DNA of 34,204 bases from a virus: the UHGV virus genome UHGV-1976995, one strand, 5' to 3'. A program made the position numbers and the translations under genes. Below, in pieces: positions 6,483-32,636 of this stretch. How positions within the stretch are numbered: position 1 is the first letter of the stretch; each line of letters starts with the position of its first letter. The notes below the pieces were generated by a model. It was not told the DNA's origin. It saw only the letters and a list, made by a program, of their open reading frames with translations, and made no database searches.

Positions 6483-6782
6483 TCAAATAAGTGGTTTGCT
6501 GCCTAATTTCATTTTCTGGCGACCAACACAAGTCACACCCATTTCACTGCGTGGCTTGCGGTAGTAAATACGATTCTGTTTACGCTCGACTTCTTCTGCC
6601 TTCTTGCAGCGAAGGCTTCCTAGTGATGCTGCTTTATCTGCTCTGACGCAACCAGAGAGCTTTAGCGCAATTTTTCGCGCCAGTCGCTGCTCTTGCATTG
6701 CCTGTTCACGTTGAGCCTGTCTGCGTGCTCTGCGGCGATTTCTGGCGTTATCGTCAGCCAGATATGTAATGACTACTGTCAT
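6483..6782 (-). CDS. N: N-like transcription antiterminator
   Basis: Arg-rich motif near the N-terminus (NARNRRRARRQAQREQ), the RNA-binding motif type of lambdoid N proteins; resembles phage 21 N from memory; GGAGGT RBS; downstream of nutL. Confidence 0.75.
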   Translation of the reverse strand: MTVVITYLADDNARNRRRARRQAQREQAMQEQRLARKIALKLSGCVRADKAASLGSLRCKKAEEVERKQNRIYYRKPRSEMGVTCVGRQKMKLGSKPLI

Positions 6783-7140
6783 GTTGACCTCCGATGATTG
6801 ACTTTGGCGGTGACGCGCCGGGTGCTTATCTTCCGGTTGCCGTCGTGCAGCTGCACTTCACGTCACCCCAAAGCCAACTACTCTTTGACTCACACTCTCG
6901 CAGTGAGCGCGCTCATGCCCTTGAGTCTCTGTCGCTTATTAGCCGCTGATAACCGGTGCGCGTCTGGCATTCGCGCTGCCTTTCCGGAGCATGTTCCCTT
7001 ATTTACCCTCACATCGGTCTGCTAAACCTGCTCGCCATTACGCGACTCGGGGCAGCATCATTACTGCTGCATTGCCTTTCGGCTGCGGTCTAACCGCGTT
7101 AGTGCACCATTACGGCACCTCCTGTTTGGTTAAACTCAGT

Positions 7141-7181
7141 TCCCGCATTTCGGCGGGACAATCCCATCAATGTTAAAGAGC
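7141..7181 (-). promoter_or_regulatory. nutL (boxA GCTCTTTAACA and boxB hairpin)
   Basis: In leftward-transcript sense: GCTCTTTAACA, spacer, then TCCCGCCGAAATGCGGGA, the same 18-nt hairpin as at nutR. Confidence 0.6.
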
Positions 7182-7224
7182 CTGCCAATCTGTTCCGTTT
7201 GGCTTCCAGCGTCCTGCTGATGGC

Positions 7225-7330
7225 TAAAGAATACTGTAGGTATTTTATTGTGTAAATACCCAAGGTATTTATTTTTGATGAAATAATGATAAACAAATGA
7301 ATACAAAGGATATTTATTTTTTCGCTGTCT
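7225..7330 (-). promoter_or_regulatory. OL/PL region: candidate operators and leftward promoter
   Basis: 17-bp dyads GAATAC-TGTAG-GTATTT (7229..7245) and AAATAC-CCAAG-GTATTT (7254..7270), 25 bp apart; weaker third site 7309..7325; candidate PL TTTACA-N17-TATTCT on the minus strand. Confidence 0.45.
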
Positions 7331-7400
7331 GCTTGTTCAGTGATTTTTATGCGGGATATGTGAAGTGGATCCCGATAGCTATTGCTGCCGGGATTATGGG

Positions 7401-7790
7401 TTAGTCAGCGAAGGTTAAGACGAGAATTACCTTAATGATGTCTGCTACAACAGACACGGCCATAGATAAACCAAAGACGATCCAAGCCACAGTGATGTCT
7501 TCACTACCATCGTATAGAGTTCCGTAATCACTGGTGTAAGGCGTAAATGTCGCGCCTTGATACAATAGGTATAAGCTTGATCCATAGAGGATAAATGCAG
7601 ATATCCCTTGTATTGCTATGATCACAAGAATCATGAAACGAGCTGATCTATGCGCCCAAGCCTGGCTTATTTTTTCTGATAGAGATTTCGCAATAAAAGC
7701 ATGCGCTAAGCCGTAAATTGTCGAGATTGCCAACATCCCAAAAAAGCTTGCTATAGCGGTTACAACCATAATCGCCCCTTGCGTGATCAA
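7401..7790 (-). CDS. integral membrane protein co-transcribed with cI
   Basis: 129 aa with about four hydrophobic helices; start overlaps the cI stop (ATGA); lies between cI and OL/PL, the position of rexA/rexB in lambda. Confidence 0.6.
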   Translation of the reverse strand: MITQGAIMVVTAIASFFGMLAISTIYGLAHAFIAKSLSEKISQAWAHRSARFMILVIIAIQGISAFILYGSSLYLLYQGATFTPYTSDYGTLYDGSEDITVAWIVFGLSMAVSVVADIIKVILVLTFAD

Positions 7791-8503
7791 ACCAGCCTTA
7801 GTTTTGTCTCAATTGCAACGCCTATAATCTTGCAGTTTCCATTGATTGGCACGAGAGGCCATGCAGGATTAAGTCCCTTGAGGTATTTATTTCCGCCGTC
7901 GATTATCAGCTTCTTGAATGTTGCTTCGTTAGAGTCAGAAAGTTTTGCTATGACCAAGCTGCCGTTGATCGCCTCCCTTCCGGTATCGAAAAGAACGAAT
8001 GTTCCCTCTGGAATGCTTAACCCAACCGGTGCCGTCATTGAATCACCTTCCACTTTAAGCCAAAACGCATTACCTTGAATATGCGCGTCAGACTCAAGCC
8101 AAACATCTATGTCTTTAATGGTGTATGGTTCGCATGCTTCACACCACGAGCCAGCCTGGATACTGCTTAACACCGGATACCTCTTTCCTGCTCTGTATTC
8201 CCCTGCATACCTTACGTTGGCATCGCTCTTAAGGCTTTCTGCCTGTTCTGCAACCTTGGCAGCAATTGACTGGCTAAAATCAGCAATTGAGACTTGCAAC
8301 AATCGTGCAAAACCAGATGCAACCTCAACGTTTAGCGCGTTTCTGCCATTAAGATAATGCCCTACCGCTCCTTGGGTGATACCCAGTTCATCAGCGATTG
8401 AGTATTGGGTTATTCCCAATTCTTTCTTTTTTGACTCATACAAAGCCTTAAGCCGCTTAGCGTCTTCGAGCTGTTCTGTCGTCAGTGATTTTTTATTTTC
8501 CAT
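7787..8503 (-). CDS. cI: CI-type prophage repressor (HTH plus LexA-like S24 autocleavage domain)
   Basis: N-terminal HTH (QYSIADELGITQGAVGHYLNG); C-terminal GDSM Ser and downstream Lys typical of S24 self-cleaving repressors; divergent from cro. Confidence 0.85.
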   Translation of the reverse strand: MENKKSLTTEQLEDAKRLKALYESKKKELGITQYSIADELGITQGAVGHYLNGRNALNVEVASGFARLLQVSIADFSQSIAAKVAEQAESLKSDANVRYAGEYRAGKRYPVLSSIQAGSWCEACEPYTIKDIDVWLESDAHIQGNAFWLKVEGDSMTAPVGLSIPEGTFVLFDTGREAINGSLVIAKLSDSNEATFKKLIIDGGNKYLKGLNPAWPLVPINGNCKIIGVAIETKLRLV

Positions 8504-8609
8504 AGCTTAATTCTAATAGCTAAGGTACTTAAACTAAAAATACCCTGAGTATTGATTGCTTTGAATACCTGTAGTATTCTTTGTTCATGGTTAATAACGG
8601 AGAGTGCAT
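8504..8609. promoter_or_regulatory. OR with PR and PRM
   Basis: Dyads AAATAC-CCTGA-GTATTG (8538..8554) and GAATAC-CTGTA-GTATTC (8563..8579); candidate PR TTGATT(8552)-N17-TATTCT(8575); TAGAAT-like -10 about 6 nt before the cI ATG, with no RBS. Confidence 0.5.
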
Positions 8610-8804
8610 ATGATTCGAATGACACTTGCCGATTACGCCAAAATCCATGGACAGGCTAAAGCAGCCAGTGACTTTGGTGTAATCCAGTGCGCTATCAGCA
8701 AGGCCATTCTGGCAGGCCGTAACATCATGGTTACGGTAAAGCCTGATGGCAGTGTGATTGGAGAGGAAGTTCGTCCTTTCCCAAGCAACAAGAAAAACAA
8801 ATAG
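8610..8804 (+). CDS. cro: Cro repressor
   Basis: [11 protein letters not shown]...[19 protein letters not shown]...PFPSNKK is closely similar to lambda Cro as I recall it; start set to the ATG at 8610 behind ACGGAGAG. Confidence 0.85.
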
Positions 8805-31750: not shown

Positions 31751-32236
31751 TTATCTGATGTTACTGCTACTGTTGCATGTTACCGTGTTTCCAAATCCTG
31801 AATTGCAGTTTGTATATGTGTCAACGCGTGTTGGGTAAGGTTGAGTTATAACAGGCTGGCGCGCTTTTTGCTCGATCGCTTGCATTGTGTTTACAGCCTG
31901 ATAATTCAATAAAGCCTGCTGGAATGCTTGGCTTTGTGCTATTTGTTGGGCTTGTTCTTGGCTTTGTAATTGAACATAAAGATTCTGAAGCTCAAGTCTT
32001 GCCTGTGCGTCACTTATCTTGCCTTCATCGACACCTTGCCCGAGCATCTTTGCAGCAAGGACATACAGCTTAGGTGTTGGTGCTGATGCCATGCGTGAGT
32101 CGTTCTTCACACTGGCATCAAGGCAATTAGCCATATCGCTAAGCTTTTGATAGCGTTGTTCGCAACTTGCTTGATAGTCACTTACTTTTGCGCACCCAGC
32201 CAGCAGAAGCGGGATAATTAACAGTGATTTTTTCAT
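31751..32236 (-). CDS. lipoprotein, cargo gene, candidate superinfection-exclusion factor
   Basis: Track ORF 31751..32287 trimmed to MKKSLLIIPLLLAGC (signal peptide with lipobox LAGC); opposite strand to the flanking structural genes; Gln-rich helical middle and Cys-containing C-terminus. Confidence 0.6.
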   Translation of the reverse strand: MKKSLLIIPLLLAGCAKVSDYQASCEQRYQKLSDMANCLDASVKNDSRMASAPTPKLYVLAAKMLGQGVDEGKISDAQARLELQNLYVQLQSQEQAQQIAQSQAFQQALLNYQAVNTMQAIEQKARQPVITQPYPTRVDTYTNCNSGFGNTVTCNSSSNIR

Positions 32237-32270
32237 ATAATTAACTCTCCTTAGTTTTGCGCAGGATACC

Positions 32271-32636
32271 ATGAAAAAAGTTAACATTGGAAACGTACCA
32301 AAGATGCTCGTTCCGCTCTTTGAGAGCGGTACAATTGTGTTTTGTAGAGACTTTCCAGAATGGCAACGCCTGCATCAAAAACTTGGCGTTGACGTGCATG
32401 ACTCGGACGCCAACGGAGCGTCTCATACAATGAGTAGCGAGAATGGTGTTTTGCATGTGATAGGCGTGTTCAATGGCAAACTATCTACTATTGCCCATGA
32501 GTGCGCTCACATGGCATTCGATATCTGCTCAAGGGTAGGTGTTGATGTTGAACCAGGAAGAGCCAACGAGACTTACTGCTACTTAATGAGCAGGCTTGTT
32601 GAGTTCTGCGAGCGACATATCAAAAAGCCGGAGTGA
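32271..32636 (+). CDS. small HExxH-motif protein (putative metallopeptidase-like), cargo gene
   Basis: 121 aa with HECAH at residues 86 to 90 of the track translation; no strong RBS at either candidate start. Confidence 0.5.
   Translation: MKKVNIGNVPKMLVPLFESGTIVFCRDFPEWQRLHQKLGVDVHDSDANGASHTMSSENGVLHVIGVFNGKLSTIAHECAHMAFDICSRVGVDVEPGRANETYCYLMSRLVEFCERHIKKPE

What the first reader, a model, noticed from the sequence alone, without database searches (positions are those of the whole stretch)
7401..7790. Membrane protein translationally coupled to the cI repressor
A 129-aa protein with about four transmembrane helices starts on the cI stop codon (ATGA) and lies between cI and OL/PL, where lambda carries rexA/rexB. 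It would therefore be made in lysogens from PRM, and genes in this slot are classically exclusion or abortive-infection factors. It shows no resemblance to RexB that I can recognise, so it may be an uncharacterised lysogen-expressed defence protein.
Basis: partly seen in the sequence, partly recalled or inferred. Interest (0 to 1): 0.65.

Follow-up and report, generated by a model that had tools for sequence, protein, structure and literature searches.

The report
Repressor-linked small membrane protein HkaS
A real, conserved 122-residue inner-membrane protein gene (hkaS of coliphage HK620) sits 17 bases behind the prophage repressor gene and is almost certainly made in lysogens, but it was already catalogued as 'unknown', belongs to a tiny family with no detectable relatives, and its suspected role in keeping out other phages is still untested.

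Summary
The ORF is real, but the description needs correcting. It is hkaS of phage HK620 (annotated 'unknown' in the HK620 record; PHROG 6534, unknown function).

- **Start codon:** the conserved start is ATG at 7769, with its own Shine-Dalgarno, giving 122 aa. It lies 17 nt after the cI stop. It is not an ATGA overlap: the window has a non-conserved TTGA.
- **Topology:** three transmembrane helices, not four, predicted N-out/C-in, with a small periplasmic β-hairpin (AlphaFold pLDDT 90).
- **Position:** it lies between cI and tIMM/OL/PL, so it can only be transcribed with cI, from the presumed PRM/PRE promoters. This is inferred, not measured.
- **Selection and linkage:** it is under purifying selection (ω≈0.15–0.2). 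It was intact in 89/89 loci and directly behind a cI gene in 88/88. It occurs in 146 of 5,426 complete E. coli genomes.
- **Relatives:** the family is confined to Enterobacterales prophages. It has no match in Pfam, NCBIfam, PADLOC or PDB, and none to RexB, SieA or Hex.

A defence or exclusion role is plausible from the slot's precedents (RexAB, BstA, Stk, Hex, Nun). I favour a Sie-type block of DNA entry, with low confidence. Nothing here tests it.

Separately, a widespread, unannotated ~240-nt structured element lies in the PL leader (6886–7126).

The parts
7401..7769 (-). hkaS coding sequence (122 aa plus TAA stop), predicted three-pass inner-membrane protein
   Evidence: PHROG 6534 E=5e-78 over 122/122 profile positions. 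98% identical to HK620 hkaS. ω≈0.15–0.2. AlphaFold pLDDT 89.9.
7770..7790 (-). 5' extension of the mechanical ORF from TTG 7790 (TTGA overlap with the cI stop); probably untranslated spacer that holds the Shine-Dalgarno AAGGGG at 7775..7780
   Evidence: The TTG is absent from the Salmonella, L007 and Buttiauxella lineages, and an in-frame TAA precedes the ATG in L003. A Shine-Dalgarno-like AAGG(A/G) 5–8 nt before the ATG is conserved.
7787..8503 (-). cI repressor gene (238 aa), first gene of the operon
   Evidence: Peptidase_S24 5e-24 and HTH_3 8e-10. 99.6% identical to HK620 cI.
8510..8515 (-). PRM-like -10 hexamer TAGAAT, 6 nt before the cI ATG (suggests a leaderless cI mRNA as in lambda); inferred only
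   Evidence: Read from the sequence. PRM is not annotated in the HK620 record.
8514..8579 (+). OR3-OR2-OR1 operators and pR, mapped from the HK620 annotation
   Evidence: HK620 features shifted by the offset fixed by cI and hkaS. The region is 99.6% identical.
7369..7394 (-). Hairpin 6 nt after the hkaS stop (AUCCCG-N14-CGGGAU, -13.7 kcal/mol), with no U tract
   Evidence: A different hairpin sits at the same place in each diverged lineage.
7289..7319 (-). tIMM, the terminator of the cI transcript as annotated in HK620
   Evidence: HK620 annotation mapped onto an identical stretch. My simple terminator scan did not flag it.
7221..7292 (-). OL3, OL2, OL1 and pL
   Evidence: HK620 annotation. 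A promoter-like site at 7256..7228 on the minus strand was found independently.
7141..7182 (-). nutL (mapped from HK620)
6483..6782 (-). N antiterminator gene (99 aa), first gene of the PL operon; marks the far edge of the slot
   Evidence: phrog_271 E=5e-37 and N_peptide.
8610..8804 (+). cro, divergent from cI
   Evidence: Pfam Cro 3.6e-26. HK620 annotation.

Best explanation
hkaS encodes a 122-residue, three-pass inner-membrane protein. The N terminus and an acidic, aromatic-rich β-hairpin face the periplasm. A short basic amphipathic helix and the C terminus face the cytoplasm.

The gene is the second cistron of the cI operon. It is therefore transcribed with cI, from the presumed PRM in lysogens and PRE during establishment by analogy with lambda, translated from its own ribosome-binding site, and silent during lytic growth.

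I think it most likely acts alone as a superinfection-exclusion factor at the inner membrane. It would interfere with passage of incoming phage DNA, either by hindering the ejection or tape-measure conduit or by masking an inner-membrane host factor. This is the mode of P22 SieA, T4 Imm and HK97 gp15.

Shown: the gene is real, and it is linked to cI. Predicted: membrane topology. Inferred: lysogen-specific expression and the exclusion function.
For: Gene, operon and topology:
- Family match, purifying selection and intactness.
- A 17–20 nt gap behind cI in 88/88 loci with no promoter-like or terminator-like site in it, and tIMM/OL/pL downstream.
- Three hydrophobic helices. The 28-44 loop carries +4 K/R. 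The 67-96 segment carries 4 acidic and no basic residues. The model is confident.

Function:
- The cI-N slot is a documented hotspot for lysogen-expressed exclusion genes (PMC8585504, PMC3564112).
- A lone small inner-membrane protein with no sensor partner matches the Sie-type precedents. P22 SieA is a three-helix inner-membrane protein that is sufficient on its own to block DNA injection (PMC10883804).
- The distal periplasmic hairpin (residues 79-95) is the most variable part (mean identity 0.39, 1/17 invariant). The recurrent E. coli polymorphism sits at 93-94. Both fit a surface that meets changing invaders.
- The window's P22-like phage has no SieA homologue at the sieA position; a lipoprotein gene sits there instead.
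Against: - There is no experimental evidence of any kind.
- There is no homology to SieA (hhalign 0.3%, and no FxRYPxEAxxFNK motif), and no match in PADLOC, Pfam, NCBIfam or PDB.
- Fold searches return only generic helical bundles.
- SieA is encoded next to the virion ejection-protein genes, and to my knowledge HK97 gp15 lies among tail genes. hkaS instead travels with the immunity module and occurs in phages that, judged from their taxonomy and names, have P22-like, HK97/lambda-like and Stx-type virions. It therefore cannot be tuned to one delivery apparatus.
- The characterised occupants of this slot act after DNA entry: RexAB, BstA and Stk by abortive infection, and (from my knowledge) Nun by blocking transcription.
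- The best-conserved parts are on the cytoplasmic side (C-tail identity 0.86, loop 0.64), which could point to a cytoplasmic partner.
- Loop variability may only reflect weak constraint.
Confidence: 0.3

Rival explanations
1. Membrane effector of abortive infection or premature lysis. HkaS oligomerises into a channel or holin-like lesion that depolarises or lyses the cell when a superinfecting phage perturbs the membrane. This would be like RexB but without a RexA-type sensor.
For: - The same slot and operon position as rexAB, and abortive infection is the commonest function shown for this slot (RexAB, BstA, Stk; PMC8585504, PMC3564112).
- Invariant polar or charged residues lie inside the helices (Q54, S65, S106, D110, K113), as expected for a pore or oligomer interface.
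- The predicted three-helix N-out/C-in topology is that of class I holins (holin topology from my knowledge).
Against: - No similarity to RexB (probability 0.6%).
- No sensor gene: cI is directly upstream in 88/88 loci.
- The soluble parts are too small (about 17 and 20 residues) to recognise a phage product in an obvious way.
- It lacks the charged C-terminal tail of holins.
- PADLOC has no match.
Confidence: 0.22
2. Lysogeny-control accessory. HkaS tunes establishment or stability of lysogeny rather than fighting other phages. It might act on a membrane-bound host factor such as FtsH/HflKC, which degrades CII and CIII, or otherwise change induction frequency. The precedents are 434 Hex and the role proposed for lambda RexAB in the lysogenic-to-lytic transition.
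For: - It co-diverges with one cI lineage and has not been separated from it, while flanking genes are mosaic.
- It would be made from PRE as well as PRM.
- The most conserved parts face the cytoplasm.
- 434 Hex, in the same position, lowers spontaneous induction 30-fold (PMC3564112).
- Thomason et al. 2021 on RexAB is cited in PMC12315714.
Against: - The strict linkage is also explained trivially. The gene lies between cI and its OL operators, so it is locked inside the immunity module.
- Close relatives of this cI carry other cargo or none in the slot, so cI does not need HkaS.
- No similarity to Hex.
- HkaS evolves about 4 times faster than cI at the protein level.
Confidence: 0.15
3. Lysogenic-conversion factor unrelated to phages. 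The membrane protein would change host physiology, for example stress, colicin or antibiotic tolerance, or transport, and so benefit the lysogen.
For: Expression only in lysogens (inferred), purifying selection and presence in 2.7% of E. coli genomes from many sources are all compatible with this.
Against: There is no transporter, enzyme or signalling motif and no family match. The family is confined to one prophage slot and never occurs elsewhere on chromosomes or on plasmids.
Confidence: 0.1
4. A functionless hitchhiker ORF that persists only because it is trapped between cI and OL.
For: Its position inside the immunity module would shield it from replacement by recombination. The family is tiny.
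Against: - pN is far below pS, with synonymous sites saturated between lineages while the protein stays alignable end to end without gaps.
- It was intact in 89/89 loci.
- The Shine-Dalgarno and start codon are conserved.
- The fold is confidently predicted from only 8 sequences.
Confidence: 0.03

Closest known systems
Phage HK620 HkaS (AAK28867 / NP_112052; PHROG 6534)
   Same: The same gene: 98% identical over 120 of 122 residues, with the same position behind cI and before tIMM/OL/pL.
   Different: Two to three residue differences. The HK620 record gives no function.
Lambda RexB (with RexA)
   Same: A small polytopic inner-membrane protein encoded on the cI transcript between cI and OL. Expressed in lysogens (PMC8585504).
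   Different: No sequence similarity. RexB is 144 aa and, from my knowledge, has four helices and needs the sensor RexA. HkaS is predicted to have three helices and has no partner gene.
P22 SieA (types A-C)
   Same: A prophage-expressed inner-membrane protein with three (type A) predicted transmembrane helices, acting alone to block DNA injection (PMC10883804). It is the closest analogue in size and architecture.
   Different: No similarity, and no FxRYPxEAxxFNK motif. sieA has its own promoter beside the ejection-protein genes, not in the cI operon.
Phage 434 Hex
   Same: The second cistron of the PRM transcript, starting at or near the cI stop. It confers heterologous exclusion (PMC3564112).
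   Different: An unrelated sequence with a signal-peptide-like N terminus and no polytopic membrane domain. Its shown activity is inhibition of RecA-stimulated repressor cleavage.
BstA of Salmonella prophage BTP1; Stk of 933W; Nun of HK022
   Same: Occupants of the same cI-N slot, expressed in lysogens, that act against other phages (PMC8585504, PMC3564112; Nun from my knowledge).
   Different: By the papers' descriptions and my knowledge these are soluble proteins with unrelated mechanisms (action at phage replication sites, a kinase, a transcription terminator). No HkaS profile search returned them.
T4 Imm, HK97 gp15, lactococcal Sie2009 (small membrane blockers of DNA entry)
   Same: The same kind of actor: small membrane proteins that stop DNA entry (listed in PMC10883804; details from my knowledge).
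   Different: No homology was detected by the family searches. They have different helix numbers and genomic positions. I did not compare them pairwise here.

Membership tests
HkaS / PHROG 6534 | Full-length sequence match to the family profile | tested here: met
   E=5.4e-78, residues 8-129 of the 129-codon ORF against profile positions 1-122 of 122. 98% identity to HK620 hkaS.
HkaS / PHROG 6534 | Position directly downstream of an HK620-type cI and upstream of OL/pL | tested here: met
   88/88 loci with upstream sequence have cI 17–20 nt upstream. HK620 annotation mapped onto the window.
Lambda RexB | Sequence homology to RexB | tested here: not met
   hhalign probability 0.6%. No RexB family was among the Pfam hits.
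Lambda RexB | Adjacent rexA sensor gene | tested here: not met
   cI is the immediate upstream gene and OL/pL lie immediately downstream.
Lambda RexB | Four transmembrane helices | tested here: not met
   Three helices by hydropathy and by the AlphaFold model.
Lambda RexB | Encoded on the PRM transcript between cI and OL | tested here: met
   By position only. Transcription was not measured.
P22 SieA | Sequence homology, including the cytoplasmic FxRYPxEAxxFNK motif | tested here: not met
   hhalign probability 0.3%. The motif (PMC10883804) is absent from the HkaS sequence.
P22 SieA | Inner-membrane protein with three predicted transmembrane helices | tested here: met
   Prediction only. Localisation was not tested.
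P22 SieA | Blocks DNA injection of superinfecting phage | not testable with these tools
   Needs plating and K+ efflux or DNA-entry assays.
Phage 434 Hex | Sequence homology | tested here: not met
   hhalign probability 0.06%.
Class I holins (lambda S105 type) | Three transmembrane helices, N-out/C-in | tested here: met
   Positive-inside analysis and the model. Prediction only.
Class I holins (lambda S105 type) | Charged, basic C-terminal cytoplasmic tail, and location in the lysis cassette | tested here: not met
   The protein ends ...ILVLTFAD with no basic tail. The gene is in the immunity region.
Known anti-phage defence systems (PADLOC-DB v2) | Match to any defence-protein model | tested here: not met
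   0 families at E≤10.

The most novel reading that the evidence does not exclude
HkaS founds a new, sequence-orphan family of single-gene, membrane-embedded anti-phage proteins that ride inside the immunity module. Because it is inherited with cI rather than with any virion type, it would act on a feature shared by many invaders, either an inner-membrane step of DNA entry or a membrane perturbation that triggers cell death. It would do so with fewer than 40 residues outside the bilayer.
Probability: 0.45. Interest if true: 0.55.

Novelty: new member of a known kind. Interest (0 to 1): 0.35.

Why it matters
If HkaS excludes phages, it would add a minimal, sensor-less membrane protein to the repertoire of prophage-encoded defences. 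It would also show that the rex slot of HK620-immunity prophages is armed. These prophages include Stx2c-converting phages and occur in about 2.7% of complete E. coli genomes. The protein is small (122 aa), confidently modelled and confined to one operon, which makes it an easy test case. A single clone plated against a phage panel would settle it. If it instead tunes lysogeny, it would be a second example after 434 Hex of a cI-operon passenger that controls prophage stability.

Tried and rejected
- Pfam, NCBIfam and PADLOC scans found nothing significant.
- The 5.8-billion-protein word search found 12 clusters, all the same family.
- The exhaustive profile search of 1.84 billion representatives found one full-length cluster and one fragment.
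- The PDB sequence search found nothing.
- Profile comparisons with RexB, SieA and Hex were all negative.
- I looked for an analogous membrane protein behind the nearest other cI genes. Serratia OS31 and Cronobacter ENT39118 have no annotated gene in the slot, and ORF listing showed no comparable membrane-protein ORF. Erwinia phage 49 has an unrelated 200-aa soluble protein there.
- Literature searches for hkaS, HK620p19, NP_112052, mEpX2 and PHROG 6534 found no functional study.
- The 35-aa plus-strand ORF at 7297..7404 was rejected as a partner. It has no obvious Shine-Dalgarno and its region is not conserved in the other lineages.
- I did not try a linker-fused oligomer prediction.

Full report
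**What is at the coordinates**

The mechanical ORF list shows a 129-codon ORF on the minus strand at 7401..7790, starting at TTG. It follows a 238-codon ORF at 7787..8503.

- The upstream ORF is a cI-type repressor (Peptidase_S24 5e-24, HTH_3 8e-10).
- A Cro gene diverges from it (Pfam Cro 4e-26).
- An N-type antiterminator lies at 6483..6782.

The window as a whole is a P22-like coliphage or prophage. Its closest relatives are IME10 and HZ41, with the HK620 immunity region at 99.6% identity.

**Identity of the ORF**

It is hkaS of phage HK620.

- tblastn finds it in 16 phage records at 90–99% identity, annotated 'hkaS: unknown', 'HkaS protein' or 'hypothetical protein'.
- It matches PHROG 6534 ('unknown function') at E=5e-78.
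- The profile has 122 positions and aligns to residues 8-129.
- GenBank and PGAP annotators also aa.

**The start codon**

The junction reads ...CTGGTTTGATCACGCAAGGGGCGATTATGG.... The TTG overlaps the cI stop as TTGA, not ATGA.

Comparison of diverged homologues decides the start.

- The TTG is missing in the Salmonella, L007 and Buttiauxella lineages.
- In the Salmonella lineage an in-frame TAA directly precedes the ATG.
- An AAGG(A/G) Shine-Dalgarno 5–8 nt before the ATG is present in all lineages compared.

The gene is therefore 7401..7769, with 17 nt between the cI stop and the ATG. The two genes are tightly packed and surely co-transcribed. Translation has its own ribosome-binding site, so strict stop-start coupling is not what the sequence shows.

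**Is it a real gene?**

Length alone proves nothing, because the window is full of long antisense ORFs. The evidence is comparative.

- Between E. coli and Hafnia alleles pS=0.44 and pN=0.09 (ω≈0.15).
- Against the Salmonella and other lineages synonymous sites are saturated (pS≈0.8) while pN is 0.27–0.33. The proteins still align without gaps over all 122 residues.
- All 89 loci examined carry an intact 122-codon frame.

**Genomic setting**

The window is identical to HK620 from 7139 to 7450, so I mapped the HK620 annotation onto it.

| Feature | Window coordinates |
|---|---|
| tIMM | 7289-7319 |
| OL3-OL1 | 7229-7292 |
| pL | 7221-7256 |
| nutL | 7141-7182 |

- The independent promoter scan also found pL.
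- A hairpin (-13.7 kcal/mol, no U tract) starts 6 nt after the hkaS stop. Each diverged lineage has a different hairpin at that place.
- The 17-nt spacer holds no promoter-like or terminator-like site.
- pL and pR both point away from the gene.

hkaS can therefore only be transcribed with cI, from PRM and PRE by analogy with lambda. A TAGAAT -10 lies 6 nt before the cI ATG. This is inference; no expression data were available.

**Linkage to cI**

- In 88 of 88 loci with upstream sequence, a cI homologue lies 17–20 nt upstream.
- In the phage collection, exactly 16 records have this cI at ≥99% identity, and 16 records (the same phages in both listings) have hkaS.
- The linkage holds across E. 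coli, Salmonella, Enterobacter, Hafnia and Buttiauxella, while N, the replication genes and the virion types vary.
- cI stays 86–89% identical where HkaS has dropped to 52–60%. The dN of hkaS is about four times that of cI.

The simplest reason for the linkage is positional. The gene lies between cI and the OL operators that cI must recognise, so it is locked inside the immunity module. cI does not need it: the nearest other cI genes (58–71% identity) have different cargo or none in the slot.

**Distribution**

- 146 of 5,426 complete E. coli genomes carry it, always on the chromosome and usually in one copy.
- 115 IMG/VR contigs carry it.
- Only one other species representative was found in GTDB.
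- There are 12 clusters at 90% identity among 5.8 billion proteins.
- A profile search of 1.84 billion representatives returns only its own cluster and a fragment.

It is an Enterobacterales prophage orphan.

**The protein**

Hydropathy shows three hydrophobic stretches. AlphaFold, given only eight sequences, produces a confident model (pLDDT 89.9, pTM 0.76).

- Helices span residues 2-29, 41-73 and 89-121.
- A short helix spans 31-38.
- A β-hairpin lies at about 78-86.
- The 28-44 loop has four K/R and one E, so it should be cytoplasmic.
- The 67-96 segment has four D/E and no K/R, so it should be periplasmic.

The predicted topology is therefore N-out/C-in.

Invariant residues include S8, W38, H40, R44, Q54, S65, Y67-L-L-Y70, T74, F75, W96, S106, D110, K113 and the C-terminal ILVLT-A.

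| Region | Mean pairwise identity across five lineages |
|---|---|
| C-terminal tail | 0.86 |
| Periplasm-proximal YLLYQGATFTPY | 0.68 |
| Cytoplasmic loop | 0.64 |
| Distal hairpin, residues 79-95 | 0.39 |

The common E. coli polymorphism (TV versus SM at 93-94) also lies in the distal hairpin.

**Comparison with known families**

- No significant hit in Pfam, NCBIfam, PADLOC or PDB.
- hhalign probabilities are 0.6% against lambda RexB, 0.3% against P22 SieA and 0.06% against 434 Hex.
- Fold searches return only generic helical bundles.

HkaS is therefore a member of none of these families.

**What the slot suggests**

The literature I could read describes the region between cI and N as a mosaic hotspot.

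- It carries RexAB in lambda and BstA in BTP1, both abortive-infection systems (PMC8585504).
- It carries a kinase in 933W that aborts HK97 infection.
- It carries Hex in 434. Hex gives heterologous exclusion of P22, and also lowers spontaneous induction 30-fold by blocking RecA-stimulated repressor cleavage (PMC3564112).
- P22 SieA shows that a three-helix inner-membrane protein can block DNA injection on its own (PMC10883804).

I found no paper on HkaS function. The library lacks most subscription journals, including the 2001 HK620 paper.

**Most likely mechanism**

I favour a Sie-type block of DNA entry at the inner membrane (confidence about 0.3).

- The protein has no partner.
- It has almost no soluble mass with which to sense a cytoplasmic signal.
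- It exposes a variable periplasmic tip.
- It resembles the known single-protein entry blockers in kind.

The main counter-argument is that hkaS travels with the immunity module through phages that, judged from their taxonomy and names, have P22-like, HK97/lambda-like and Stx-type virions, whereas sieA sits with the ejection-protein genes. The characterised occupants of this slot mostly act after entry.

| Rival | Confidence |
|---|---|
| RexB- or holin-like abortive-infection effector | 0.22 |
| Lysogeny-control role, Hex-like or through FtsH/HflKC | 0.15 |
| Phage-unrelated conversion function | 0.10 |
| Functionless hitchhiker (disfavoured by selection) | 0.03 |

Taken together, some form of phage exclusion has roughly even odds.

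**Verdict**

The gene is not new, having been named in the HK620 record; only its function is open. It is an inexpensive and well-defined candidate, and not a surprise to a specialist. Interest 0.35.

**Seen in passing**

Relative to HK620, the window carries a 251-bp insertion at 6888..7138, between nutL and N. Its transcribed (minus) strand has three parts in order.

- A strong Shine-Dalgarno.
- A start codon and a mini-ORF of one to six codons. In the window this is ATG GTG CAC TAA at 7109..7098.
- About 200 nt of GC-rich (56%) sequence with an invariant CCNGAGUCGC-N6-GCGAGC.

What the searches showed:

Of these, 113 carry the whole element, as 96 distinct sequences.
- It is in 113 of 5,426 E. 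coli genomes, almost always as a single copy, and never annotated as RNA.
- It is in phages of Escherichia, Hafnia, Klebsiella and Providencia.
- In every annotated phage context I examined it is co-oriented with the surrounding operon. Its position varies: the nutL-N leader, the Q-to-tRNA late leader, or between lysis and terminase genes.
- Variation shows no three-base periodicity.
- The start codon varies only among ATG, TTG and GTG.
- RNAalifold finds several hairpins with a few compensatory pairs.
- Rfam has no match, even at E≤10.

I could not assign a function. It may deserve its own investigation.

Noticed in passing
window 6886..7126, minus strand (insertion 6888..7138 relative to HK620): An unannotated ~240-nt element in the PL leader between nutL and N.
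- It has a strong Shine-Dalgarno, a start codon (ATG/TTG/GTG across relatives), a mini-ORF of 1–6 codons, then a GC-rich structured part with an invariant CCNGAGUCGC-N6-GCGAGC.
- The whole element is in 113 of 120 pattern-selected IMG/VR loci (96 distinct sequences), in 113/5,426 E. coli genomes (almost always one copy), and in Escherichia, Hafnia, Klebsiella and Providencia phages.
- In the annotated contexts examined it is co-oriented with the host operon, but in different leaders or intergenic sites.
- Variation shows no codon periodicity. There are a few compensatory base pairs, no Rfam match, and no paper containing its sequence.
   Followed up: partly
window 31751..32287, minus strand: In P22, sieA sits just after ejection-protein gene 16 on the opposite strand. 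At that position this phage has a gene for a lipoprotein-like protein: MKKSLLIIPLLLAGC lipobox, about 161 aa from that Met, PHROG 6067 'unknown function'. It has no similarity to SieA. It is a possible Cor/Llp-style exclusion lipoprotein.
   Followed up: partly
window 7369..7394 minus strand; same position in L003, L007, L008/L009: Every diverged hkaS lineage has a hairpin within about 10–30 nt of the stop codon. The hairpins differ in sequence and none is followed by a U tract. This suggests a conserved RNA 3'-end or stability feature upstream of the annotated tIMM.
   Followed up: partly
L013 2530..3132 (Erwinia phage vB_EhrS_49): A cI that is 65% identical to the window's is followed, 12 nt downstream, by an unrelated 200-aa soluble hypothetical protein in the same slot. 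This is another uncharacterised passenger of a cI operon.
   Followed up: no
window 6483..6590 versus HK620 N 3' end: The N gene is identical to HK620 N over its 5' two-thirds and then diverges completely (99 aa versus 90 aa). A mosaic junction therefore lies inside the N coding sequence.
   Followed up: no
window 7297..7404, plus strand: A 35-codon hydrophobic ORF (MNTKDIYFFAVCLFSDFYAGYVKWIPIAIAAGIMG) is convergent with hkaS and overlaps its stop, tIMM and OL3. It has no obvious Shine-Dalgarno, and the region is not conserved in the other hkaS lineages. It is probably spurious.
   Followed up: partly
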